The notes under the pieces: generated by a model
The model's database searches: none
Told to the model about the DNA's origin: nothing
The model's input: the letters and a program-made list of their open reading frames with translations, nothing else
Program-made: the position numbers and the translations under genes
Source: Acutalibacteraceae bacterium
Lineage (GTDB): Bacteria > Bacillota > Clostridia > Oscillospirales > Acutalibacteraceae
Reading direction: 5' to 3'
Assembly: GCA_045536815.1 (NCBI GenBank)
Contig: JAZSOH010000025.1
Coordinates: forward strand, 1 to 64,000
Length of the DNA stretch: 64,000 nucleotides
In this document: positions 35,665 to 46,072 of the stretch, piece by piece
Numbering within the stretch: position 1 is the stretch's first letter
Layout of the letters: every line of letters begins with the position of its first letter

Positions 35665-37239
35665 ATGGCAAAAACAAACTTGACCAAAAAAATCATTACC
35701 CTTATTGCTCTTATGCTTTGTGTTGTAATGGCGTTTTCTGCTTGTAACCAAACAGGCGGCGAAAACCCTGAAAAAGAGGGCGAAACGCAAAACACTTTGC
35801 AAAATGAGAATGAGGACACCGCATCTAAAGATGAGGGAACCGAAGAAGGGGATAAGGACACCGAATCCAAAGACAAGGATACCGAATCTGAAGATAAAGA
35901 TACCGAGTCTAAAGACGAGGGTACTGAATCTGAAGACAAAAACGACAAACCCTCAGGTGGTAACAAGCCTTCAAGTAACGAGAAGTCTACCGTTTGGGGT
36001 TCAAATGATGTCGATGAAATCCTTAAGTCTATGCCCGATAAGGTAAAGGATAAAGAAATTCATGTTCTTATGTGGCGTGAGTATACCGAGTCTGAGCAAA
36101 AGCAGGTTGACGACTTCCAAAAGAAAACCGGTGTTAAGGTTAGAACTACCATAACAACCGAGTATGAATATTCAACCAAACTTATTGCTCTTATTTCTGA
36201 TAAAGATGCTCCCGACGTTGTTAACCTTGGTTGCCGCGAGTTCCCTTCGCGTCCTACAAAGGCGATGCAGCTTTTGGATGAAGAAACCTTCCGTTTGGAT
36301 GACGAGTGTTGGCAAAAATCTTATATGGAGCCATATAGTGTTAAGGGCAAATACTACAGCGTAGCAATGCCTGGCACTTGGTCGGTAGAGGATACAACCT
36401 TTATTACAATATATAATAAAGCTATCCTTAAAGATGCCGGTGTAAGCACAATGCCTTATCAGCTTTATAAATCTGGTAAGTGGAATTGGGCAGAACAGCA
36501 GAAGATTATGGAAAAGGTTAAGGCAGCAGGTAAAGTTCCTATGACAACTCAAGGCGCTGACCTTTATATGCTTTCTGCTGGTGTCGACTTTGCTAGCTAT
36601 AATCCTACCAAGGGCGAGTTCGTAAGCCTTTTGGATGATACTAAGGTTCGTCCCGCAATCGAAAATTCTTGGAAAGCTCTCCAAGAAGCAACAAATAAAG
36701 AGCTTATAACAACTCAGTTTGATATTTCGGGCTTTAGACAGGGTAAATATGGCTTTATGTCTATTATCTGCTTCACCTTCTATAATCAGGGTGGCCACCT
36801 TGACGGTGTAGACGGCGGAATTCAAAATATTGAGGCAGTTCCTGTTGCAGGTCCCACACAAAGCTCGGCATATATACCTTTCCGTCCTAAAGCATGGGGC
36901 GTTGCAAAGGGCGCTGACAATGTTGAAGGCGCAGCATATTTTATCAGATATTTCCTTGACCCCAAAACTATTGATATGGATAGCACTTTCTGGCATAAAC
37001 AGTTTAAAGAAGTGTTCAATATCATAACTGATAAAAACGCTCGTAAGATGGTTCAGGTTGGTTACGGTATAACCGATTATAGTAATGGTAGAGGCACTTA
37101 CGACGCTATCGTTAATGAACTTGCAACTGCTACTGTTGGTCAGGCACCAACAATTATCAATAAGCATAAGGGTAAAATCAATATATCTATTAAACGTGCT
37201 AATGCTGCTATTGAAAGAGTTGCTAAAAAAATAAAATAA
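35665..37239 (+). CDS. extracellular solute-binding lipoprotein (SBP family 1-like) with acidic D/E/K low-complexity linker
   Basis: Lipobox AFSACN. Linker DTESKDKDTESEDKDTESKDEGTESEDK. Core LMWREYTESEQKQVDDFQKKTGVKV…. RBS AAGAGGTGA. Confidence 0.7.
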   Translation: MAKTNLTKKIITLIALMLCVVMAFSACNQTGGENPEKEGETQNTLQNENEDTASKDEGTEEGDKDTESKDKDTESEDKDTESKDEGTESEDKNDKPSGGNKPSSNEKSTVWGSNDVDEILKSMPDKVKDKEIHVLMWREYTESEQKQVDDFQKKTGVKVRTTITTEYEYSTKLIALISDKDAPDVVNLGCREFPSRPTKAMQLLDEETFRLDDECWQKSYMEPYSVKGKYYSVAMPGTWSVEDTTFITIYNKAILKDAGVSTMPYQLYKSGKWNWAEQQKIMEKVKAAGKVPMTTQGADLYMLSAGVDFASYNPTKGEFVSLLDDTKVRPAIENSWKALQEATNKELITTQFDISGFRQGKYGFMSIICFTFYNQGGHLDGVDGGIQNIEAVPVAGPTQSSAYIPFRPKAWGVAKGADNVEGAAYFIRYFLDPKTIDMDSTFWHKQFKEVFNIITDKNARKMVQVGYGITDYSNGRGTYDAIVNELATATVGQAPTIINKHKGKINISIKRANAAIERVAKKIK

Positions 37240-37253
37240 TAATTTAAAAGCGA

Positions 37254-37290
37254 AATACCTTTCCCTAAATTTTGGGAAAGGTATTTTTTA
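37254..37290 (+). terminator. rho-independent terminator
   Basis: aaatacctttccc-aaaatt-tgggaaaggtattttt. Confidence 0.8.
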
Positions 37291-37532
37291 TATTCAGTAG
37301 TAAAATAAAAACAGTTTGTGAATTTTTTAAAAAAAGTCTAAAATGTTGTTGCTTTTGAAAAAATGTTGTTGTATAATTCTATTAGAGATAAAAAGCTCTT
37401 TTATATGGTCCTCTTGGCAAGATGATTTTATTCATTCAGGTCAGTTGTCTAAGGCCATATAAATCGTAAATGTTTTTTAATATTTACATATTTTGATTAT
37501 TAAGTATTTTAAAAAATATGAGGTGACCAAAA

Positions 37533-39107
37533 ATGAAATCTAGTTCTTTAATTAAAAAGCTTCTTGTTGCAATCGCACTTATGCTTTGCGTTGTAATGGC
37601 TTTTTCTGCATGTACTGGTAATAAAACACCTGCTGATAACGACGATACCGACGTTAATCAAGGTCAGGTTGATACTACCGATGATGACGATAAAGACACA
37701 AAAGACGATGCCGACGACAAAGACGATGCCGACGACAAAGACGATAAAGACGATAAAGACGATAAAGACGACAAAGACGACAAGGATGATAAAGACGATA
37801 AAGATGACAACGACGACAAATCATCTAAGCCAAACAAACCCACTAATACTGATGGTATGACAGTTTGGGAGTCTGAAAAGGTTGAAGATATCCTTGCAAA
37901 TATTCCTGAAAAGGTAAAGAAGAAAGAAATTCATATTCTTATGTGGCGTGAATATACCACATCTGAGCAGAAACAGATTGACGATTTCCAGAAAAAGACT
38001 GGTATCAAAATCAGAACTACTCTTACAACCGAGTATGAATATTCAACCAAGCTTATCGCTCTTATCTCTGATAAGGATTCTCCTGACGTTGTAACACTTT
38101 CGTCAATGGAATTCCCCGCACGTGCTACAAAAGCAATGAAGCTTTTGGATCCTGAGGTTTTCCGCCTTGATGACAAAATTTGGAATAAGACTTATATGGA
38201 TGACTTTAGACTTAAAGATAAGTACTATTCTGTAGCTATTACAGGTACATGGTCTGTTGAAGACTGTAACTATCTTTCTATCTATGACAAATCCATTCTT
38301 GCTGACGCAGGTGTAAGCACAATGCCTTACGACCTTTATAAAGCAGGTAAGTGGAACTGGGCAGAGCAACAAAAGATTATGGAAAAGGTTAAGGCTTCGG
38401 GTAAAACTGGTATGACAATTCAGTCTCCTGACCTTTATATGCTTTCCGCCGGTGTTGACTTTGCTGACTACGATCCTGACAAAGCTCAGTTCGTAAGCCT
38501 TCTCGACGATGCTAAAGTTCGTCCTACAATCGAAAGTTCTTGGAAAGCTCTTCAAGAGGCTACAAGTAAAGAACTTATCTATCCTACACTCGACATCTCG
38601 GGTTATAGACAGGGTAAATATGGCTTTATGTCCATCATTTGCTTTACTCTTTATAACCAGGGTGGACATCTTGACGGTGTAGACGGTGGTGTTGCTGATA
38701 TCGAAGCAGTTCCTCTTGCAGGTCCTACTCAGGCTAGCGCTTACGTTCCTGTTCGTGCTAAGACTTGGGGTGTTGCAAAGGGTGCTGATAACGAAGAGGG
38801 TGCAGCATACTTCCTCAGATATTATCTCGACCCCACAACTGTTAATATGGATAGCACATTCTGGCACAAGCAGTTTAAAGAAGTATACAATATCATTACT
38901 AAGAGCAACAAGAAGATTACTCTTGTAGGCTCGGGTGTTACCGACTATAGTAATGGTATCGGTACTTATGACTCAATCTGCTCTGAACTTGCTAATGGTA
39001 CTGTAGGTCAGGCACCTACAATCCTTAATAAGCACAAGGGTAAGATTGGTACATCACTCAAACGTGCTAACAACGTTTTGGAAAGAACCGTTGCTAAAGG
39101 TAAATAA
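37533..39107 (+). CDS. paralogous solute-binding lipoprotein with poly-(D/K) linker
   Basis: About 70% identical to the 35665-37239 product over the core. Linker DDKDDADDKDDKDDKDDKDDKDDKDDKDDKDDNDDK. Confidence 0.7.
   Translation: MKSSSLIKKLLVAIALMLCVVMAFSACTGNKTPADNDDTDVNQGQVDTTDDDDKDTKDDADDKDDADDKDDKDDKDDKDDKDDKDDKDDKDDNDDKSSKPNKPTNTDGMTVWESEKVEDILANIPEKVKKKEIHILMWREYTTSEQKQIDDFQKKTGIKIRTTLTTEYEYSTKLIALISDKDSPDVVTLSSMEFPARATKAMKLLDPEVFRLDDKIWNKTYMDDFRLKDKYYSVAITGTWSVEDCNYLSIYDKSILADAGVSTMPYDLYKAGKWNWAEQQKIMEKVKASGKTGMTIQSPDLYMLSAGVDFADYDPDKAQFVSLLDDAKVRPTIESSWKALQEATSKELIYPTLDISGYRQGKYGFMSIICFTLYNQGGHLDGVDGGVADIEAVPLAGPTQASAYVPVRAKTWGVAKGADNEEGAAYFLRYYLDPTTVNMDSTFWHKQFKEVYNIITKSNKKITLVGSGVTDYSNGIGTYDSICSELANGTVGQAPTILNKHKGKIGTSLKRANNVLERTVAKGK
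37690..37830 (+). repeat. tandem 9-bp repeats (gacgataaa/gacgacaaa) encoding the DDK linker
   Basis: Repeats are visible directly in the sequence. Confidence 0.85.
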
Positions 39108-39798
39108 TTTATAAAAATTTCGGCTTTGTATTGGGAGACACTTCGTAAAGAAGTGCCTCCCAATTTCTTTTATATTATAAATAACACTTTCGATAGATAA
39201 GTGTCATAGTGGGTTATATACATTGAAAATACACCTATCTCAAAGATAAAATATTGTGTGAGAGGACTCACAGTGATATTTTGCCTTACGGCAAAGTGAT
39301 ATTGAAATCTGCGGTTTTAGTTTTAATATATTCGCATAAAAACTGTCCGAAGGACAATATAACGCTGCTTTGCATCATATAACTGCGCAGCAATATAACT
39401 CGCCGATAGGCGAATATAACTGAGTCACACTTTTTTTACAGAGTGTGACTCTTGGCGGGGCCTATTTTTTATTTATGTATCAATTTCCCAATACGTTCGT
39501 AGGGGACATTCACGAATGTCCCGTGAACCGCCGTAAATTTGTACATATTATATTTGTATTATAAATTTCCACGTTTCGCATACAAATAAAATTTTAATAC
39601 ATCGCCAAATTCAAACGGGCGAATCGTGATTCGCCCCTACAACAAATTTATAATAACACACCGTAGGGGACATTCACGTCCCACGCGGTGGGCACCGTCA
39701 CGCGCAACCTAATTGTATGAAATTTAAATTCCGCATCCCGCACCCGTAATTTTATCAATGTTATAATTACACCGTAGGTGCTACTTACGAATTGTTCG

Positions 39799-39886
39799 TA
39801 GCTAACTTTAGGTCTATTTAGCTATCGCGAAGCGATAATTTAGCTACCGTAAGGTTATTTAGCTGCTCCGAAGGAGCAATTTAACT
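39799..39886 (+). promoter_or_regulatory. ATTTAGCT box array (4 boxes, 22/19/22-bp spacing) with variable hairpin spacers
   Basis: Boxes at 39816, 39838, 39857 and 39879. Spacers atcgcgaagcgat, accgtaaggt and gctccgaaggagc are each palindromic. Confidence 0.75.
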
Positions 39887-39893
39887 GTAAATA

Positions 39894-39972
39894 TTTTTTA
39901 CAATTTTTTTGCAAAATTTTGTAAAAAAGATTTACTTTACCTCTTGTTACAATTTTTAAAATGTGTTATTAT
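39894..39972 (+). promoter_or_regulatory. inverted repeat TTTTTTACAA-N15-TTGTAAAAAA plus promoter (TTGTTA-17-TATTAT) of the prs-like gene
   Basis: Read directly in the sequence. The same cassette recurs at 41803-41884. Confidence 0.55.
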
Positions 39973-40004
39973 ATATGTGATGATTTTTTGGAGGTTGATT
40001 TTTA

Positions 40005-41156
40005 GTGGCAACAATAACTTTTAAACATACTCCGTTTGGCGAACTTGCGCTTGTAAGTATGCGTGGCTGTGAGGATATTTCTAAAAGGGTAGATTATTAT
40101 CTTACACAGTGGCGCGAAACCCCCGAAGACCATAGCTTTATAGTTAAAGCTACCTGTCCGCGTTTTGGCTCGGGTGAGGGTAAAGCGGTTTTCAGTCATT
40201 CCGCTAGGGGACTTGACGTATATATTATATGTGACTGCTTTAATCATGGCGTTACATATACAATGTATGGTAAAACCGTTCCTATGAGTCCTGACGACCA
40301 TTATCAAGATTTAAAACGCGTTATCGCATCTTTAGGCGGTAAGGCTAGAAGAATAACTGTTATTATGCCAATGCTTTATGAGGGTAGGCAACACCGCCGC
40401 TCCTCCAGAGAATCTTTAGACTGCGCTATGGCTCTTCAAGAGCTTATAAATATGGGTGTTTCAAATATTATCACTTTTGACGCTCATGACCCAAGGGTAC
40501 AAAACGCTATTCCTCTTGGCGGCTTTGATAATGTTCAGCCTACATATCAAATGATAAAGGCTCTTGTTAAAAACGTACCCGATATTGTTATTAACCGCGA
40601 AAAAACTATGATAGTTTCTCCCGACGAGGGTGGTATGGGCCGTTGTATCTATTATTCTTCGGTTTTAGGGCTCGACCTTGGTATGTTCTATAAACGCCGT
40701 AATTATTCGGTTATTGTTAACGGCCGTAATCCTATCGAGGCTCACGAATGGCTCGGTAAAGACGTTAAGGGTAAAGACCTTATTATTGTAGACGATATGA
40801 TTTCTTCGGGCGACTCAATGCTTGATATTGCTGAGAAGCTCAAGAAAAAAGGTGCAGGCCGTATATTTATCTTCTCAACCTTTGGCCTTTTTGTTGAAGG
40901 TCTTGAAAAGTTTGATGAGTATTATGAAAATGGCCTTATCGATAAGGTGTTCACAACCAATCTTATTTATTCAACCCCCGAACTCAGAAGTAGGGAGTGG
41001 TACTGTAATGTAGACCTCTCTAAATATATTGCCTATTTGGTTGATACCCTCAATTACGATAATTCTATTAGCGATTTGCTTAACCCCGCCGAAAGAATTG
41101 CTAACCTTATGGTAAAACATAATAAAGAACTTGAAGAAAAAGGTATTGCGCATTAG
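40005..41156 (+). CDS. ribose-phosphate pyrophosphokinase (PRPP synthetase) family protein, long divergent form
   Basis: GTG start after GGAGG. Prs motifs RFGSGEG, EGRQHRR, FDAHDP, VSPDEGG, DDMISSGDS. 383 aa versus about 315 aa typical. Confidence 0.7.
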   Translation: MATITFKHTPFGELALVSMRGCEDISKRVDYYLTQWRETPEDHSFIVKATCPRFGSGEGKAVFSHSARGLDVYIICDCFNHGVTYTMYGKTVPMSPDDHYQDLKRVIASLGGKARRITVIMPMLYEGRQHRRSSRESLDCAMALQELINMGVSNIITFDAHDPRVQNAIPLGGFDNVQPTYQMIKALVKNVPDIVINREKTMIVSPDEGGMGRCIYYSSVLGLDLGMFYKRRNYSVIVNGRNPIEAHEWLGKDVKGKDLIIVDDMISSGDSMLDIAEKLKKKGAGRIFIFSTFGLFVEGLEKFDEYYENGLIDKVFTTNLIYSTPELRSREWYCNVDLSKYIAYLVDTLNYDNSISDLLNPAERIANLMVKHNKELEEKGIAH

Positions 41157-41164
41157 CGCAATAC

Positions 41165-41280
41165 CTTTTATAGTTAAATGCGACTATCGTCGCGCTAAAT
41201 AGTCACTTCGTGACAGCTAAATAACTCCTGCGGAGTAGCTAAATTATCGCTACGCGATAGCTAATTTTGTTGAAAAAATT
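41165..41280 (-). promoter_or_regulatory. inverted-orientation box array (AGCTAAAT x5, 21-22-bp spacing) with hairpin spacers
   Basis: Boxes at 41172, 41193, 41215, 41237 and 41259. Spacer hairpins gtcacttcgtgac, actcctgcggagt and tatcgctacgcgata. Confidence 0.7.
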
Positions 41281-41316
41281 ATGCCTCTATTATATAATAA
41301 TGTAAGAGGTGATTTT

Positions 41317-41667
41317 ATGTCTGAAAGTATTATGTTGAATAAGGCGAAAGAACTTGCCGTAAAGGTTATAAAACTTTGCCGTATTATAAGGGAAAAGGAA
41401 AGAGAAACAGTTTTAACGAATCAGTTGCTTAAATCCGGTACGAGTATAGGCGCTAATATACATGAGTCAAAATATGCTCAAAGCAGTGCTGATTTTGTAC
41501 ATAAAATGCAAATAGCTTTAAAAGAATGTTATGAGAGTGAATATTGGCTTGAGCTTATGAATAAATCCGGATATATAGATGATGTAGAGTATAATGATTT
41601 AAATAACGAGTGTGGGCAAATCCGACGTATGCTTATAAGTTCAATAAACACCTTAAAAAACAAATAG
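41317..41667 (+). CDS. four-helix-bundle protein (TIGR02436 / 23S rRNA intervening-sequence protein family, Avd-like)
   Basis: 116 aa. …KSGTSIGANIHESKYAQS…EYWLEL… family pattern. RBS AGAGGTGA. The longer ORF starts at 41281. Confidence 0.7.
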   Translation: MSESIMLNKAKELAVKVIKLCRIIREKERETVLTNQLLKSGTSIGANIHESKYAQSSADFVHKMQIALKECYESEYWLELMNKSGYIDDVEYNDLNNECGQIRRMLISSINTLKNK

Positions 41668-41701
41668 CTTGTTTTTTTCACACTCAGCGTTACTTTGCCG
41701 A

Positions 41702-41884
41702 ATTTAGCTATCGCGTAGCGATAATTTAGCTGACCTTTAGGTCTATTTAGCTATCGCGTAGCGATAATTTCGCTGCCCGTCAGGGCAATTTAGTTGTAAA
41801 TATTTTTTACAAAAAATTTTTTTCAAAATTTTGTAAAAAATATTTACTTTACCTATTGACTTTTTCTTAACGAAGTAGTAGAAT
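41702..41884 (+). promoter_or_regulatory. ATTTAGCT box array (5 boxes) plus inverted repeat (41803-41840) plus promoter TTGACT-17-TAGAAT
   Basis: Boxes at 41702, 41724, 41745, 41767 and 41788. Homologous to 39799-39972. Confidence 0.7.
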
Positions 41885-41966
41885 ATAGTAAAATAAATAG
41901 AATGTGTGTATTATTGTTTGGCTTAATTTTATTTATTATTAAAATTTTTTAGTTGGAGGAATATCA

Positions 41967-44216
41967 ATGAAAAAAATTCTAACAATTTTGCTCACAGTAA
42001 TCCTCGTTGTTTCGGGTTGCTGGGGCGCGCTTACCGCAAGTGCGGCAGGCACAACTGCTTTTGAAACAAGAGCAAATTGGAAGTCCGTAAATGGTGGCGG
42101 TACAATTATTGATACTGCTACTCATAATGATGGACACTTAGGCAACAACTGGGACGATAAATATACGTACGGCGATGGCGGAACTTCTATGGTTCTTCCC
42201 TTTACAAATGTTCACCGTGCAGTATTCATTAAGCTCGAAGGCTTAACTTCCGGTACTAAGTACGAGCTTAGCTTTAAGTACTACATCCCCTCTACCGTTG
42301 CTAGCTACGACGGTGCAGGCCAGGCTATTCTTCACGCTGCTGTTTATAATGAGGGTACAGTTCATTCTAATGGTCGTTTAACCATTAACTCTAAGGCTAG
42401 TGAAAATGCTGTTAGCTTCACCTCTACAACTGGTGAAGATGCAAACGGTGCTCCTATTTGGCAGTATGGTAAGGTTACCTTTACTCAAGGTGCTACAAAC
42501 CTCTACTTCGCAATTAGCCAGGTTACAACTTCTGATAATGCTATGTATCTTGACGATATCAAGGTAACTGAGGCTAACGCAGCAGCTCTTGCTCAGCCTA
42601 ATTCTACTGCTTCTCCTATGGATAAAGATTATAGCGTTAACGCTAGTTGGGCATCATATCATCCTAATCAGGCAAACCAAGCAGCTTATCCTAAAGTATT
42701 AAACGGCACAAGTGGTTGTACTTGGAAGGGTTCTGATGATGCATCTGTTTATCCTGACGGAAATGCAGTTAAATTTGCTTATCCTGATGTTACACTCTTT
42801 ACTCAGGCAACAAAAATCATCAATCTTACTGTTGGTAAAACCTATACTATTAGTTACAAATATATGATTCCTGCTGGTGTAAATTATGGTGGTACTGGCT
42901 ATATTTTCAGAAGAGGTCTTTATCCTGTAAACCAAGGCTATGCTTCAACTTCTACCTATTATCCAAATGATACAGGCGCTTATGTTGCAGGTAAAAATAT
43001 CACAGCCAACACTAACGGTGAATGGCTTACCGAGACAATGACCTTCACAGCTACTGCAACTGAAGCAATGCTTGGTCTTTCATTCCGTTCAGCAGCTGCT
43101 ACTGACGTATATTATATCGCTGATGTTCAGGTTGCTGAACACGGTGCATATAGTGCAGATATGCTCTTCACAAAATATGCTAAATCTACAACCGTTGATG
43201 GTTCTTCTGAACTTCGTGGTGCTTGGCCTTCATCAACAGTTTATCCCGGCGGTCAGGGCAACACATCTTCATACTCTTTCCTCATTTCCGGTGCTGGTAC
43301 ACAGTTCGGTGCTTCTGCTATGAGGCTCAACGGCCTTGCTGCTGGTATGAAGTATAGAGTTAGCTTTAAATATTATATCGGTGATGGCAACGCACCTTCT
43401 GCTGGTGTTCCTTACATTCTTAGCGCAAACGTAGTTAAGAGTGGCGCAGTTTTAAGTGCTCTTGGTTTACCTACAAATAATATTATTTCAACCTCTGCAG
43501 CCAACCTTTTGACAACAGGCGGTACTGATGATGCTGCTGTTTGGAAATCTGCACATGTTGACTTTACTGCTGCTGAAGGCGACAACTTCTTTATCGTTTC
43601 TCAGCGTGTTGGTACTGAAGGCGCAGGCAGAATGATTGACGAAATCGAGGTTACTCCTCTTGCAGTTGAAACCTTTACAGAAAGCAAAGCTGCTGTAAGA
43701 CTTTACCTCAACCAAGACGAGAAAATTGAAGAGAATAAAAAGCCCGGTCTTCGTATCTACAATAAGTTAGACGCTACTTGGGCATCCGCTCTTGACCTTG
43801 TTGAATTTGGTTCAGTTGCTATCAAAGCTTCTAACCTCACAACAAGTCAGCTTTCACTTAACACAGCTGGTGCTATTTCTGGTGTTTCTTACAAAACAAT
43901 CGGCGGTAACACATCACTTATCTGGGCAAAAGATTCTGCTTCTACTACCTTTACTGCATACTTAAGCGGTATCTCTGCTAAGAACTATGGTCAAGACTAT
44001 GTAGTTCGCGCATACGCTAAAGATATTAATGGTAACGTTTACTACGGTGACCAGATTAGCATTTGTATCTACGACGTAGTTAAAACTATCTTCGATACTA
44101 CTTCTACTTGGAACGATGACTGTACAATCGCTCAAGACTTTATCGATGCAGGTAATGCAGCAGCTGAGCTTGACGATTCAGTAGTTACCTATGATGAGTG
44201 GAAAGCAGCACAATAA
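41967..44216 (+). CDS. secreted protein with three tandem CBM-like beta-sandwich repeats and a C-terminal domain of unknown function
   Basis: Signal peptide MKKILTILLTVILVVSGCWGALTASAAG. Three ~170-aa repeats each ending …Y.DDI.V. (LSFKYYIP…YLDDIKVTEA; ISYKYMIP…YIADVQVAEH; VSFKYYIG…IDEIEVTPL). Confidence 0.6.
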   Translation: MKKILTILLTVILVVSGCWGALTASAAGTTAFETRANWKSVNGGGTIIDTATHNDGHLGNNWDDKYTYGDGGTSMVLPFTNVHRAVFIKLEGLTSGTKYELSFKYYIPSTVASYDGAGQAILHAAVYNEGTVHSNGRLTINSKASENAVSFTSTTGEDANGAPIWQYGKVTFTQGATNLYFAISQVTTSDNAMYLDDIKVTEANAAALAQPNSTASPMDKDYSVNASWASYHPNQANQAAYPKVLNGTSGCTWKGSDDASVYPDGNAVKFAYPDVTLFTQATKIINLTVGKTYTISYKYMIPAGVNYGGTGYIFRRGLYPVNQGYASTSTYYPNDTGAYVAGKNITANTNGEWLTETMTFTATATEAMLGLSFRSAAATDVYYIADVQVAEHGAYSADMLFTKYAKSTTVDGSSELRGAWPSSTVYPGGQGNTSSYSFLISGAGTQFGASAMRLNGLAAGMKYRVSFKYYIGDGNAPSAGVPYILSANVVKSGAVLSALGLPTNNIISTSAANLLTTGGTDDAAVWKSAHVDFTAAEGDNFFIVSQRVGTEGAGRMIDEIEVTPLAVETFTESKAAVRLYLNQDEKIEENKKPGLRIYNKLDATWASALDLVEFGSVAIKASNLTTSQLSLNTAGAISGVSYKTIGGNTSLIWAKDSASTTFTAYLSGISAKNYGQDYVVRAYAKDINGNVYYGDQISICIYDVVKTIFDTTSTWNDDCTIAQDFIDAGNAAAELDDSVVTYDEWKAAQ

Positions 44217-44243
44217 TTAACTAATTATAGGAGGGAAATTTCA

Positions 44244-44357
44244 ATGAAAAAATATAATGCACCTGAGTTTGAAATCAAAGAGCCTAAATTAGTTAACATG
44301 ATGCTTGATTTAGGCGAAATCGGTTCCGATACCGAGCTCGACTTTGATGAAGAATAA
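44244..44357 (+). CDS. candidate 37-aa acidic small peptide
   Basis: MKKYNAPEFEIKEPKLVNMMLDLGEIGSDTELDFDEE. GGAGGG RBS 9 nt upstream. Shorter than the ORF-track cutoff. Confidence 0.35.
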   Translation: MKKYNAPEFEIKEPKLVNMMLDLGEIGSDTELDFDEE

Positions 44358-45290
44358 TTAATAAAACTTCGGCTTTGTATTGGGAGCTACTTCGTATAGA
44401 AGAAGCTCCCAATTTTTTTATTTTATAAATAACACTTTCGGTAGATAAGTATCATAGTTGGTTATATACCTTGAAAAAACACCTATCTCAAAGATAAAAC
44501 CTAGTAGTGTTATTGTGTGAGAGGTCTCACAAAGATATTTTCCTTACGGCAAAGTGATATTGAAATCTGCAGTTTTAGTTTTAATATATTCGCATAAAAA
44601 CTGTCCAAAGGACAATATAACGATGCTTAGTATCATATAACTGCGTAGCAATATAACTCGCCGACAGGCGAATATAACTGAGTCACACTTCATTACGGAG
44701 TGTGACTCTTGGCGGGGCCGATTTTTTTATTTATATATCAATTCCCAATATGTCCGTAGGGGACATTCATGTCCCACGCGGTGGGCGACGCCACGCGTAA
44801 CCTAATTGTATGAAATTTAAATTCCGCTTCCCGCGCCCGTAATTTTATCAATGTTATAATTACACCGTAGGGGCTACTTACGAATCGCCCGTAATGTGAA
44901 CCGTCGTAAATTTGTACATATTATATTTGTGTTATAAATTTACGCGTTTCGCATACGAATAAAATTTTAATACACCGCCAAATTCAAACGGGCGAATCGT
45001 GATTCGCCCCTACAACAAACTTATAATCACACCGTAGGGGACATTCACGTCCCACGCGGTGGGCGCCGCCACGCGCAACCTAATTGTATGAAATTTAAAT
45101 TCCGCATCCCGCGCCCGTAATTTTATCAATGTTATAATTACACCGTAGGGGCTACTTACGAATCGCCCGTAACCAACCTTCAGGTCAATTTAGTTGCTTA
45201 AAGCAATAATAATTTTATAATTGTTATTGCTTTAAGCTGTTTTTTTTGATATAATTATAATGTAAATCTATATTATTTTTTTCGAGGTGT
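44358..45290 (+). repeat. ORF-free hairpin-dense ~0.9-kb element, copy B
   Basis: Collinear with copy A, with an extra ~140-bp unit duplication (44752-44895 and 45032-45170). Bounded by terminators at 44380-44424 and 45196-45250. Internal TGTTATAAT extended -10-like boxes. Confidence 0.85.
45196..45250 (+). terminator. strong rho-independent terminator ending repeat B
   Basis: gcttaaagcaataa…ttattgctttaagc 14-bp stem followed by T8. Confidence 0.8.
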
Positions 45291-45295
45291 TTAAA

Positions 45296-46072
45296 ATGGC
45301 AAAAGTTACTTTACTGGCGTATACACCAAGTCCCGAACATACTATTGCCGCGGCGGCAAAACTTTGTTATTCTTCTTCAGATATCGGCACATTAACCGAA
45401 GGCCTTACCGATGAAAAAGCGGCTTCTTTTGTTGAGATGCTCGCTGAAATCGGTCACGAAAGTCCTATTGAACATGCTTCATTTACCTTTGGTATTGAAG
45501 GTGTTTCAAGGTCGCTTTTGGCACAAATTACAAGACATAGAATAGCGTCATATTCAGTTCAAAGCCAAAGATATGTTAAAGAGAATAATTTTAGCTTTGT
45601 AACTCCGCCTGAGGTTTCGGCCGAGCCTGAGGCATTAAAGGAATTTGAAGCGGCTATGAAGGCGGCTGAAGATTCTTATCATAAGATTGCAGAAATTTTG
45701 TCGGATAAATACGTAAAAGAATATTTGGCAGAGGGTAAAGATGAAAAAACGGCAAAGAGAATGGCCGAAAAACGCGCTATTGAAGATGCCAGATTCGTTT
45801 TACCTAATGCCTGTGAAACAAAAATGGTTATGACAATTAACGCTAGAAGCCTTATGAACTTCTTCCGCCATCGCTGTTGTAATCGCGCACAGTGGGAAAT
45901 TCGTGCCGTAGCCGACCAAATGCTTTCCCTTGTTTTAAAGGTTGCACCCGAGCTTTTCAAAAAAGCGGGTCCACCTTGTGTAAGCGGCGCCTGTCCTGAG
46001 GGCAAAATGTCTTGCGGTTTGGCGAAAGAAATGAAAGAAAAATACTTGAACTTAAGAAACGGTGAAAAGTAA
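45296..46072 (+). CDS. thyX: flavin-dependent thymidylate synthase
   Basis: ThyX motif [24 protein letters not shown]. Confidence 0.85.

What the first reader, a model, noticed from the sequence alone, without database searches (positions are those of the whole stretch)
39799..41884. Recurring 'conserved short box + variable hairpin' arrays at ~21-bp periodicity in both orientations
Three arrays of the 8-mer ATTTAGCT (39816-39886, 4 boxes; 41172-41266 on the opposite strand, 5 boxes; 41702-41795, 5 boxes) have box starts spaced 22/19/22, 21/22/22/22 and 22/21/22/21 bp, about two helical turns. Every spacer is a different small palindrome (atcgc-gaa-gcgat, acc-gtaa-ggt, gctcc-gaa-ggagc, gtcac-ttc-gtgac, gccc-gtca-gggc…). 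Analogous arrays use other boxes: ATATAACT x4 at 39356-39421 (and 44620-44690), GTGATATT x2 at 39281-39300. Direct repeats at two-turn spacing resemble iterons or cooperative regulator sites. Variable hairpins between constant boxes resemble ssDNA/RNA recognition elements (IS200/IS605-like or attC-like). No familiar motif (DnaA box, CodY, CtsR, parS) was recognised.
Basis: seen in the sequence. Interest (0 to 1): 0.7.

Follow-up and report, generated by a model that had tools for sequence, protein, structure and literature searches.

The report
Hairpin-spaced repeat arms flanking four-helix-bundle gene
The arrays are real and belong to a repeat family scattered through the genomes of gut Clostridia. 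In this window two of them are the inverted arms around a small gene for a ring-forming four-helix-bundle protein of unknown function, a gene-plus-repeat pairing that I also found in other phyla and did not find described beyond one rRNA case.

Summary
In detail: there are three arrays of ATTTAGCT boxes separated by variable mini-hairpins. The 8-mer itself is not over-represented in the window; the phased arrays are.

A three-box pattern recurs in at least 120 stretches of public genomes, nearly all gut or rumen Clostridia. These are usually inverted pairs of about 4 boxes per arm.

Box spacing across the family is 17-25 bp, so there is no helical phasing. The hairpins show compensatory changes, and their GNA/GNNA loops and G·T wobbles sit on each arm's own outward-reading strand. 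That argues for single-stranded structure rather than double-stranded iterons.

The nearest described family is Rfam Gut-1 (20-41 bits, threshold 50), whose seed sequences show the same architecture.

The key link is the gene. Arrays 2 and 3 flank a TIGR02436/PF05635 four-helix-bundle gene (Avd/S23p-like). In a protein-led search, 33 of 36 close homologues carry the same arrays. Distant homologues and 9 of 9 annotated plasmid genes are flanked by inverted heptamer arrays, as in the Coxiella 23S rRNA intervening sequence. A close relative lacks both gene and arrays.

My inferred mechanism, untested, is that the arrays are cognate repeat arms read by the pentameric protein.

The parts
39799..39886 (+). 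Array 1. One degenerate leading unit, then ATTTAGCT x3 and ATTTAACT, separated by the hairpins atcgc-GAA-gcgat, acc-GTAA-ggt and gctcc-GAA-ggagc. It is an orphan arm with no partner arm.
   Evidence: 39806-39848 is 93% identical to 41735-41777, so this is a partial paralogue of array 3. Absent from the close relative L121.
39887..39972 (+). A/T-rich stretch and a promoter-like site (TTGTTA-17-TATTAT with an upstream TG) ahead of the PRPP synthetase gene. It is duplicated downstream of array 3.
   Evidence: Repeat families D9 and D12; promoter scan.
40005..41156 (+). Ribose-phosphate pyrophosphokinase gene (prs). It is a housekeeping gene bracketed by array 1 (+) and array 2 (-). It is not part of the element and served as the anchor for comparing relatives.
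   Evidence: Pfam; homologues; synteny with L121.
41142..41171 (+). prs terminator hairpin (ggtattgcgc-atta-gcgcaatacc) followed by TTTTAT. Array 2 starts at the next base.
   Evidence: Sequence. Conserved in L121.
41172..41266 (-). Array 2, the left arm of the four-helix-bundle cassette. It has five boxes read on the minus strand. On that strand the hairpins are gcgac-GATA-gtcgc, gtcac-GAA-gtgac, actcc-GCA-ggagt and tatcgc-GTA-gcgata.
   Evidence: Pairs with array 3 in the RNA fold. Absent from L121.
41270..41298 (+). Promoter-like site TTGAAA-17-TATAAT (11 of 12 matches), between array 2 and the four-helix-bundle ORF.
   Evidence: This is a consensus match only.
41317..41667 (+). Four-helix-bundle protein gene, 116 aa. 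It belongs to TIGR02436 / PF05635, the '23S rRNA intervening sequence protein' family (S23p, Avd-like).
   Evidence: Pfam E 4e-28; TIGR02436 at 115 bits against a cut-off of 24; PDB 2RLD at E 7e-30, an entry with five chains. Homologues are tied to the same arrays.
41701..41795 (+). Array 3, the right arm of the cassette. It has five boxes, with the hairpins atcgc-GTA-gcgat (twice), gacc-TTTA-ggtc and gccc-GTCA-gggc.
   Evidence: fold; Gut-1 sub-threshold hit of 27.3 bits.
41856..41884 (+). Promoter-like site TTGACT-17-TAGAAT ahead of the 749-aa ORF.
   Evidence: Conserved in L121.
39342..39422 (+). Sister array with the box ATATAAC(T) x4 and the hairpins tgtcc-GAA-ggaca, gc-GCA-gc and cgcc-GATA-ggcg.
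   Evidence: Rfam Gut-1 at 37.3 bits, matched on the opposite strand.
44600..44680 (+). Second copy of the ATATAACT array.
   Evidence: Rfam Gut-1 at 41 bits.
39257..39303 (-). Sister array with the box GTGATATT on the + strand (AATATCAC on the - strand). The GTAA loop reads on the minus strand. A second copy lies at 44516-44561.
   Evidence: Rfam Gut-1 at 22.6 bits.
39108..39815 (+). An intergenic mosaic repeat of about 700 bp that carries the sister arrays. A second copy lies at 44363-45186. Both are absent from L121.

Best explanation
The arrays are arms of a repeat family dispersed through the intergenic regions of gut Clostridia (Oscillospirales-like genomes). Each arm is a row of about 4-5 copies of the heptamer ATTTAGC. 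On the other strand this reads GCTAAAT. Each copy is followed by a short hairpin whose sequence is free but whose structure is kept.

This is the hairpin-interrupted version of the inverted heptamer-repeat arms that flank genes for the TIGR02436/PF05635 four-helix-bundle protein in many phyla, including the S23p ORF inside 23S rRNA intervening sequences. In the window, arrays 2 and 3 are the two arms of one such cassette (41172-41795). Array 1 and the ATATAACT and GTGATATT arrays are orphan arms.

Shown:
- The family exists and has this architecture.
- It is tied to the gene.
- It differs by insertion or deletion between close relatives.

Inferred:
- The arms act in single-stranded form, and each arm acts on its own outward-reading strand.
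- The mini-hairpins hold the heptamers apart and exposed.
- The repeated heptamers are read by the cognate ring-shaped (pentameric) four-helix-bundle protein.
- Because the two arms are complementary, they can also zip into a long interrupted stem that encloses the ORF, as in the stems of rRNA intervening sequences that RNase III cuts.

My probabilities for the parts: identity as cassette arms or orphans of this family, about 0.85. Single-stranded rather than double-stranded function, about 0.75, with DNA slightly favoured over RNA. Direct reading by the four-helix-bundle protein, about 0.4.
For: Family and architecture.
- The three-box pattern occurs in at least 120 stretches, nearly all Clostridia.
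- 99 of 158 arrays have 4 boxes. Inverted pairs with a conserved centre (AGCTAAAT-TAAATTCGC...) are the common form.

Structure.
- There are 296 distinct spacers. The hairpin starts at the first spacer base. The closing pair is C-G in 75%.
- Loop counts include GAA 43, GCA 18, GTA 11 and GTAA 11, against TTC 0.
- Compensatory changes occur in 3-10 of 21 sequences per pair.
- On each arm's own box strand there are 21 G·T against 7 A·C (P = 0.006).

No phasing. Spacing is 17-25 bp.

Gene link.
- 12 of about 113 array-ascertained loci have a four-helix-bundle homologue abutting the arrays.
- In the reverse, protein-ascertained test, 33 of 36 close homologues have the boxes within 260 nt upstream. 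Four of them (L129, L150, L159, L161) have minus-strand boxes upstream as in the window; in L150, L159 and L161 plus-strand boxes also lie downstream, so the gene sits between the arms.

Generality.
- 29 of 34 distant homologues have a period-7 array on at least one side, against 2.5% of control windows. The median is 4.7 copies.
- 9 of 9 annotated 'four helix bundle protein' genes have such arrays. They come from plasmids of Nostoc, Dolichospermum, Planktothrix, Euhalothece, Gloeocapsa, Pseudanabaena, Chlorohelix, Treponema and Bernardetia.
- The Coxiella intervening sequence has an S23p ORF, tandem GACAGAT heptamers and a 28-bp terminal stem cut by RNase III. S23p of Xanthomonas is a homopentameric toroid (PMC4990558).

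Fold. The RNA minimum-energy fold of 41165-41800 pairs arm 2 with arm 3 and leaves the ORF in the loop (z = -6.3).

Lability. The relative L121 has Prs 94% identical and the same gene order, yet lacks the gene and all arrays.

Nucleic-acid binding by a homologue. The barrel-shaped Avd protein of diversity-generating retroelements (DGRs) binds structured RNA (bioRxiv 10.1101/2023.10.23.563531). PF05635 resembles Avd (PMC10053308).
Against: - No binding data exist. The match between about 5 heptamers and a pentamer is only numerical.
- About 90% of arrays have no four-helix-bundle gene nearby, so they might have a function of their own, or none.
- The best promoter-like site (41270-41298) lies between arm 2 and the ORF. 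The main mRNA may therefore lack arm 2 and could not form the long stem.
- Arm-to-arm complementarity in distant homologues is no greater than sharing a heptamer would give, in 12 of 14 cases.
- Box-to-box pairs never vary, so they cannot be tested by covariation.
- Energy models do not settle DNA against RNA. RNA parameters favour the box strand in 228 units against 34. DNA parameters show no mean difference (-2.75 against -2.74 kcal/mol) and rank the complementary strand more stable in 162 units against 90.
- Co-inheritance of gene and flanks could explain why heptamer type follows protein clade, without any recognition.
Confidence: 0.55

Rival explanations
1. The arrays work only as RNA, as Rfam's Gut-1 entry assumes. 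They would be either a small RNA or untranslated region made of hairpins and AU-rich linkers (a sponge or a stabiliser), or an intervening-sequence-like stem that RNase III cuts to process or regulate the four-helix-bundle mRNA.
For: - Sub-threshold Gut-1 hits of 20-41 bits.
- Weinberg et al. rated Gut-1 as a likely RNA (PMC2864571).
- There is covariation.
- RNA parameters favour the box strand.
- The whole cassette folds into a stem-loop with z = -6.3.
- RNase III excision of the Coxiella intervening sequence occurs at the heptamer stem (PMC4990558).
- The Avd protein of diversity-generating retroelements (DGRs) binds RNA (bioRxiv 10.1101/2023.10.23.563531).
Against: - The two arms carry their favourable loops and G·T wobbles on opposite strands. 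One sense transcript therefore cannot explain both arms.
- A centre of about 28 nt leaves no room for divergent promoters.
- Arrays lie in either orientation relative to neighbouring genes.
- GNA triloops and non-GNRA GNNA loops are frequent, and UUCG loops are absent. That profile fits stable DNA mini-hairpins better than RNA (PMC13037366, PMC3201870).
- G·T is only modestly more frequent than A·C: 31 against 22.
- Rfam's strand is the opposite of the favoured one.
Confidence: 0.25
2. The arrays are selfish REP/BIME- or MITE-like repeats, spread by an enzyme encoded elsewhere in the genome. The four-helix-bundle gene is only a passenger, or a gene that tends to land in such repeats.
For: - The arrays are dispersed and intergenic (124 of 131 clusters). 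Many lie at contig ends, as expected for repeats that break assemblies (44 clusters).
- Inverted pairs are common.
- Arrays are present or absent between close relatives.
- The layout, a gene flanked by inverted repeat units with many orphans elsewhere, mirrors RAYT (REP-associated tyrosine transposase) genes and their REPs. This comparison is from my own knowledge.
- Annotated four-helix-bundle genes sit inside unrelated operons.
Against: - No transposase, Y1/HUH enzyme, integrase or reverse transcriptase is among the 50 window ORFs scanned.
- Copies within a genome do not share hairpin sequences as recent transposition would give. The linker is conserved rather than the palindrome.
- The gene link is nearly obligatory from the protein side (33 of 36 close homologues, 9 of 9 annotated genes).
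- No target-site duplication was seen at the boundaries between the window and L121.
Confidence: 0.15
3. The arrays are double-stranded binding sites, either iterons or cooperative operator arrays, for a replication initiator or a transcription factor.
For: - Spacing in the window is 19-22 bp.
- Each of the three arrays lies 4-60 nt upstream of a promoter-like site.
- In four-helix-bundle-linked elements, the last hairpin and box look like a -35 and -10 element (TTGCAC-18-TAAAAT).
Against: - Family-wide spacing is 17-25 bp, with no phase.
- The spacers show compensatory changes and strand-specific loops. Recognition of the double helix does not need either.
- There is no replication-initiator gene in the window.
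- A quarter of the classifiable arrays (20 of 80) lie between convergent genes.
Confidence: 0.07

Closest known systems
Rfam RF01706, the Gut-1 RNA motif (Weinberg et al. 2010, PMC2864571)
   Same: - It has three or more short hairpins separated by a conserved heptamer (GUGAAAU or GUGAUAU) and comes from human-gut Firmicutes-like sequence.
- Its seed sequences show the same inverted-pair layout, with the centre GGCGAAUAUAAUAUCAC.
- The window's ATATAACT arrays score 37-41 bits and the ATTTAGCT arrays score 20-27 bits.
   Different: - All scores are below the gathering score of 50.
- The heptamer differs.
- Rfam models the strand opposite to the one favoured by loop type and G·T wobbles.
- The description of Gut-1 gives no function, no gene link and no host organism.
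23S rRNA intervening sequences that carry an S23p ORF (Coxiella, Leptospira; PMC4990558)
   Same: - The ORF belongs to the same protein family (PF05635/TIGR02436).
- It is bracketed by inverted arms that contain tandem heptamers (GACAGAT in Coxiella).
- The arms form a stem that encloses the ORF.
- The element is described as selfish.
   Different: - The element here lies between protein-coding genes, not inside an rRNA helix.
- The heptamers are separated by mini-hairpins.
- There are many orphan arms.
- RNase III processing has not been tested.
REP/BIME elements and their RAYT (REP-associated tyrosine transposase) genes in Proteobacteria
   Same: - Both are dispersed intergenic hairpin units in arrays of alternating orientation.
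- In both, a small gene is flanked by inverted units and many orphans lie elsewhere.
   Different: - In REPs the palindrome is conserved and the linker varies; here it is the reverse.
- The associated protein is a four-helix bundle, not a Y1/HUH nuclease.
- This comparison is from my own knowledge and was not tested.
Dispersed heptamer arrays: GGGAATC in Xanthomonas and GGGGA(C/T)T in Nostoc (PMC4692102)
   Same: - They are intergenic heptamer arrays with a marked preference for four units.
- In Xanthomonas, 70-75 of them occur as inverted pairs.
- They are lost and gained between relatives.
   Different: - Those arrays are G-rich and were interpreted as G-quadruplexes.
- They have no hairpin spacers.
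- That paper draws no link to four-helix-bundle genes. I did not test whether the Xanthomonas S23p gene is flanked by them.
Stable DNA mini-hairpins d(GCGNAGC) and d(GCGNNAGC) at single-strand initiation sites (phage G4 origin, RSF1010 ssiA, phage N4 virion polymerase promoters; PMC13037366, PMC3201870)
   Same: - The loop and closing-pair grammar is the same: c-GNA-g and c-GNNA-g. GCGAAGC itself is frequent.
- In RSF1010, two such signals lie on opposite strands.
   Different: - Those are single functional hairpins at origins or promoters.
- Here the hairpins form rows separated by a constant heptamer and occur at many chromosomal sites.
Avd of diversity-generating retroelements (DGRs)
   Same: It is a homologous pentameric four-helix-bundle barrel that binds structured RNA next to its own gene (bioRxiv 10.1101/2023.10.23.563531; PMC10053308).
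   Different: There is no reverse transcriptase, template repeat or variable repeat in the window.

Membership tests
Rfam Gut-1 (RF01706) | Covariance-model score at or above the gathering score of 50 bits | tested here: not met
   The hits score 41, 37.3, 27.3, 22.6 and 20.3 bits. None of 18 related loci reaches the gathering score.
Rfam Gut-1 (RF01706) | A row of short hairpins separated by a conserved heptamer linker, supported by covariation | tested here: met
   The seed alignment shows the same inverted-pair layout.
S23p-type intervening-sequence cassette | An ORF of the PF05635/TIGR02436 four-helix-bundle family | tested here: met
   Pfam E 4e-28; TIGR02436 at 115 bits; PDB 2RLD at E 7e-30.
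S23p-type intervening-sequence cassette | Inverted terminal arms that can form a stem enclosing the ORF | tested here: met
   Arms at 41172-41266 (-) and 41701-41795 (+). The minimum-energy fold pairs them, with z = -6.3.
S23p-type intervening-sequence cassette | Tandem heptamer repeats in the arms | tested here: met
   The heptamer GCTAAAT/ATTTAGC occurs five times per arm, but the copies are interrupted by hairpins. Homologues have contiguous heptamers. Coxiella has GACAGAT (PMC4990558).
S23p-type intervening-sequence cassette | Location inside a 23S rRNA helix | tested here: not met
   The cassette lies between prs and a 749-aa ORF. Rfam found no rRNA in the window.
S23p-type intervening-sequence cassette | Excision of the stem by RNase III | not testable with these tools
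   This needs RNA end-mapping or an in-vitro cleavage assay.
Plasmid iterons | A neighbouring replication-initiator gene and origin | tested here: not met
   50 of 57 window ORFs were scanned against Pfam. They are housekeeping chromosomal genes and none is a Rep protein.
Plasmid iterons | Whole unit of 17-22 bp conserved, at a fixed helical phase | tested here: not met
   Only 8-9 nt per unit is conserved. Spacing is 17-25 bp.
REP/BIME with RAYT (REP-associated tyrosine transposase) | Conserved palindrome with a conserved 5' tetranucleotide, and a Y1 transposase gene flanked by units | tested here: not met
   The palindromes vary (296 distinct spacers). The flanked gene is a four-helix bundle. 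There is no Y1 transposase in the window. The rest of the genome could not be examined.
IS200/IS605 ends or integron attC sites | A Y1 transposase or integron integrase nearby; characteristic sub-terminal hairpins or R/L boxes | tested here: not met
   No such gene is in the window. Units of 17-25 nt are far shorter than attC sites.
Diversity-generating retroelement (DGR) | A reverse transcriptase and a template/variable repeat pair next to the Avd-like gene | tested here: not met
   No reverse transcriptase is among the scanned ORFs. The repeats found in 37200-46000 are the arrays, the 700-bp intergenic repeat and one in-gene coding tandem (Asp/Lys-rich, 37634-37847); none is a template/variable repeat pair.

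The most novel reading that the evidence does not exclude
TIGR02436/PF05635 ring proteins and the inverted heptamer arrays that flank their genes form one widespread and so far undescribed protein-plus-repeat system. It would be a small selfish or regulatory cassette with many orphan repeat arms, found from Clostridia to cyanobacteria, Spirochaetes, Bacteroidota and Chloroflexota.

That single system would tie together several things now treated separately: the S23p ORFs of rRNA intervening sequences, the Gut-1 'RNA' motif, and possibly the long-unexplained dispersed heptamer repeats of cyanobacteria and Xanthomonas. In this reading the pentameric protein reads about five heptamers on single-stranded nucleic acid.
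Probability: 0.35. Interest if true: 0.85.

Novelty: new variant of a known kind. Interest (0 to 1): 0.65.

Why it matters
Four-helix-bundle proteins of this family are annotated in large numbers. PGAP names them 'four helix bundle protein'; other records use 'S23 ribosomal protein' or '23S rRNA intervening sequence protein'. They have crystal structures, yet no function is known outside diversity-generating retroelements (DGRs). Gut-1 has been an orphan candidate RNA since 2010.

If the gene and its flanking repeats are a cognate pair, both puzzles become testable with one binding experiment. The frequent insertion of these small genes between other genes, including inside defence operons, would also get an explanation.

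For genome annotation, it means these arrays should not be called iterons, CRISPR-like arrays or sRNA genes by default.

Tried and rejected
- Literature search for the box sequence returned only chance primer matches. A search for REP-type repeats in Ruminococcaceae found nothing.
- Exact look-ups of the window's Prs and four-helix-bundle proteins were not on record. I reached relatives through homologues instead.
- My generic detector for 'hairpin chains with similar linkers' was unreliable and I dropped it.
- Nearest-neighbour energies with DNA parameters did not separate the two strands.
- I tested whether arm-to-arm complementarity exceeds what a shared heptamer gives. The result was inconclusive: 12 of 14 cases were not significant.
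- PADLOC gave no defence-system match for the four-helix-bundle protein or the 749-aa ORF.
- CRISPR-like, attC-like, DGR and plasmid-origin readings were rejected because the defining genes are absent.
- The non-Clostridial hits of the genome scan were set aside by taxon: L001, L022, L033, L036, L040, L067 and L074. Only L001 was inspected; it is a different tandem repeat of about 21 nt.
- I looked for clean insertion boundaries or target duplications between the window and L121 and found none.


Full report
**1. The observation**

- Array 1 is on the + strand at 39816, 39838 and 39857, with an ATTTAACT variant at 39879.
- Array 2 is on the - strand at 41172-41266, with five boxes.
- Array 3 is on the + strand at 41702-41795, with five boxes.

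The quoted palindromes are there. So are the ATATAACT arrays (39357-39421 and 44615-44679) and the GTGATATT pair (39273-39303).

The 8-mer alone is not enriched in the window: 8 matches against 5.7 expected. The phased arrays are enriched. Periodic 6-mer chains number 35, against 0.26 in shuffles; nine of them come from these arrays and the rest lie in coding repeats.

The window is an ordinary Firmicutes chromosome segment of 38% G+C. It encodes PriA, a PASTA kinase, a penicillin-binding protein, ThyX, ProRS and trigger factor. None of the 50 ORFs scanned is a replication initiator, transposase, integrase or reverse transcriptase.

**2. A widespread family**

Almost all are gut or rumen Clostridia: Oscillospiraceae, Ruminococcus and Acutalibacteraceae MAGs, and one complete Ruminococcus genome. 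I estimate about 0.1 matches by chance.

Across these loci the unit is AATTTAGC, then T, a stem-loop, then A.
- Spacers are 9-17 nt long, and there are 296 distinct ones.
- The hairpin begins at the first spacer base.
- 52% have a perfect stem of at least 4 bp, against 3% after shuffling.
- 89% of mirror positions are Watson-Crick.

Box-to-box spacing runs from 17 to 25 bp with a mode of 20, so the 'two helical turns' seen in this window is not a family property.

Most arrays have 4 boxes (99 of 158). The common form is an inverted pair around a centre of about 28 nt that reads AGCTAAAT-TAAATTCGC....

The arrays are intergenic (124 of 131 clusters). They occur between tandem, convergent and divergent genes, and they often lie at contig ends.

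**3. Which strand, and which nucleic acid**

Loops are strongly asymmetric on the strand that reads ATTTAGC.
- GAA occurs 43 times, GCA 18, GTA 11, GGA 8, GTAA 11, GTCA 9 and GCAA 8.
- g-CTTG-c occurs 11 times.
- TTC occurs 0 times, and there are no UUCG-type loops.
- The closing pair is C-G in 75%.

This is the grammar of the very stable DNA mini-hairpins d(GCGNAGC) and d(GCGNNAGC). Their RNA versions are much less stable (PMC13037366, PMC3201870).

I oriented the inverted pairs by their asymmetric centre. G·T wobbles then outnumber A·C mismatches on each arm's own box strand, 21 to 7 (P = 0.006). In other words, the two arms are shaped on opposite strands, each reading outward from the centre. 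One sense transcript cannot explain that.

RNA energy parameters also favour the box strand: it is the more stable strand in 228 units, against 34 for its complement. DNA parameters show no mean difference and rank the complementary strand more stable in 162 units against 90. DNA against RNA therefore remains open. I lean towards DNA.

**4. The closest described family**

With permissive thresholds, the only Rfam family that matches is Gut-1 (RF01706).
- The ATATAACT arrays score 41 and 37.3 bits.
- The ATTTAGCT arrays score 27.3 and 20.3 bits.
- The GTGATATT array scores 22.6 bits.
- All are below the gathering score of 50.

Gut-1 is three hairpins separated by GUGAAAU. Its authors say only that it occurs in human-gut metagenomes. 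Its seed sequences show the same inverted-pair layout, with GUGAUAU boxes, a GGCGAAUAUAAUAUCAC centre and AUAUCAC boxes. Rfam models the strand opposite to the one favoured here.

**5. The gene link**

Arrays 2 and 3 flank, in inverted orientation, a 116-aa ORF at 41317-41667. It belongs to TIGR02436/PF05635, the family variously called 'four helix bundle protein', S23p and '23S rRNA intervening sequence protein', and it is Avd-like. Its closest solved relative is PDB 2RLD (E 7e-30), an entry with five chains.

I tested the link in both directions.
- Among the array-ascertained loci, 12 of about 113 have a homologue that abuts the arrays.
- In a metagenome search led by the protein, 33 of 36 close homologues (62-75% identity) have the boxes within 260 nt upstream. 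Most show the 4 + 4 inverted pair. Four have minus-strand boxes upstream as in the window, and in three of these plus-strand boxes also lie downstream.

Distant homologues (33-46% identity, from soils and sediments) have no hairpins. Instead they are flanked by inverted arrays of contiguous heptamers such as TGCAGAT, GTCAAAT and AGTGAAA. The median is 4.7 copies, and only 2.5% of control windows score as well.

All nine annotated 'four helix bundle protein' genes that I inspected show the same thing. They come from plasmids of Nostoc, Dolichospermum, Planktothrix, Euhalothece, Gloeocapsa, Pseudanabaena, Chlorohelix, Treponema and Bernardetia.

The Coxiella 23S rRNA intervening sequence has the same anatomy: an S23p ORF, tandem GACAGAT heptamers, and a 28-bp terminal stem cut by RNase III. 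The same paper notes that the S23p of Xanthomonas is a homopentameric toroid (PMC4990558).

I found no paper that states the general link between the gene and heptamer arrays.

**6. Anatomy in the window**

Folded as RNA, 41165-41800 pairs arm 2 with arm 3 along almost their whole length and leaves the ORF in the loop. The energy is -191.7 kcal/mol, against -143.7 +/- 7.7 for shuffles.

Each array is followed by a promoter-like site:
- 41270-41298, ahead of the four-helix-bundle ORF;
- 41856-41884, ahead of the 749-aa ORF;
- 39944-39972, ahead of prs.

Array 1 and the A/T-rich stretch after it are a partial duplicate of array 3 and the sequence downstream of it.

**7. Lability**

A relative whose Prs is 94% identical and whose gene order is the same (L121) lacks the four-helix-bundle gene, all three arrays and both copies of the 700-bp mosaic repeat. 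Its three intergenic regions measure 143, 280 and 176 bp. The window's measure 897, 810 and 930 bp. I saw no clean ends or target duplications.

**8. How it most likely works**

Shown: the family, its architecture, the gene link and the lability.

Inferred:
- The arms act when single-stranded.
- The hairpins serve as structured spacers that keep about five heptamers exposed.
- The ring protein reads those heptamers.
- Because the arms are complementary, they can also close into a stem like that of an intervening sequence.

The homologous Avd barrel of diversity-generating retroelements (DGRs) binds structured RNA encoded next to its own gene (PMC10053308). That makes nucleic-acid binding by this protein plausible.

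Against this reading:
- There are no binding data.
- 90% of arrays are orphans.
- The best promoter-like site lies inside the would-be stem.
- Box-to-box pairs never vary, so covariation cannot test them.
- Arm complementarity in distant homologues is no more than a shared heptamer would give.

**9. Verdict**

The iteron reading is not supported. The single-strand recognition idea and the pointer to the Avd-like gene are supported.

The thing is a new variant of a known kind. It is an S23p-type cassette that sits outside rRNA and has hairpin-interrupted heptamer arms, and it is a sister of the Gut-1 motif. The general pairing of gene and repeat looks undescribed, and a single binding experiment could test it.

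Noticed in passing
window 39108-39815 and 44363-45186: Two copies (about 89-90% identical) of an intergenic mosaic of about 700 bp. It contains a terminator, Gut-1-like arrays and a 153-nt module that occurs three times in the window (39657-39809, 44750-44902, 45028-45180). That module has GC-rich hairpins and a TGTTATAAT extended -10-like site. The mosaic is absent from the close relative L121, and apart from its array part it has almost no match in about 200 related loci.
   Followed up: partly
L208, L210, L211, L212 (plasmids of Planktothrix, Gloeocapsa, Chlorohelix, Pseudanabaena): Annotated four-helix-bundle genes with their heptamer arms sit between genes of defence systems: drmD and pglX; a DUF1156 protein and a Swt1-family HEPN protein (in two phyla); and next to cas1. 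They look like small cassettes inserted into operons.
   Followed up: no
window 39221-39307, 39352-39422, 41719-41796: Rfam's Gut-1 model matches the strand opposite to the one that carries the GNA/GNNA loops and the excess of G·T wobbles. The family's annotated orientation may therefore be wrong, or each arm may be used on its own strand.
   Followed up: partly
L081, L117, L009, L013 (outer end of the arms): A conserved 13-bp hairpin, gaatagatttaac...gttaaatctattc, abuts the outer end of some arms. In L081 and L117 it follows a good promoter-like site (TTGAAA-17-TAGAAT), which would transcribe the whole element towards the four-helix-bundle gene.
   Followed up: no
window 39205-39222 and L005: The motif CATAGTGGGTTATAT in the mosaic repeat recurs as part of an inverted repeat next to an array in another species. 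It may be one more shared building block of these intergenic mosaics.
   Followed up: no
L121 8255-8275: At the place where the window has the cassette, the relative that lacks it has atcGCTAAAATTTAACcg. This looks like one minus-type box fused to one plus-type box. It could be a remnant or a minimal site.
   Followed up: no
window 35813-35940, 37634-37847, 2061-2188: In-frame tandem repeats inside genes. Two neighbouring genes carry 9/18-nt (GACGATAAA, Asp/Lys-rich) and 21/42-nt units: the first is a solute-binding-protein-like gene, the second had no Pfam match. An ORF near the window start carries an 18-nt unit repeated 7 times.
   Followed up: no
window 44246-44356: A small ORF (38 aa in the relative L121) lies directly after the 749-aa ORF. 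It is conserved in L121 (10656-10772) and has no family match on record.
   Followed up: no
L101 and L043: In L101 the array-plus-promoter-like module is duplicated, once ahead of the four-helix-bundle gene and once ahead of the next gene. In L043 a more distant four-helix-bundle paralogue (52% identity) has AGTTATG/AGTTATA-type arrays downstream. That hints that paralogues go with different heptamer types.
   Followed up: no
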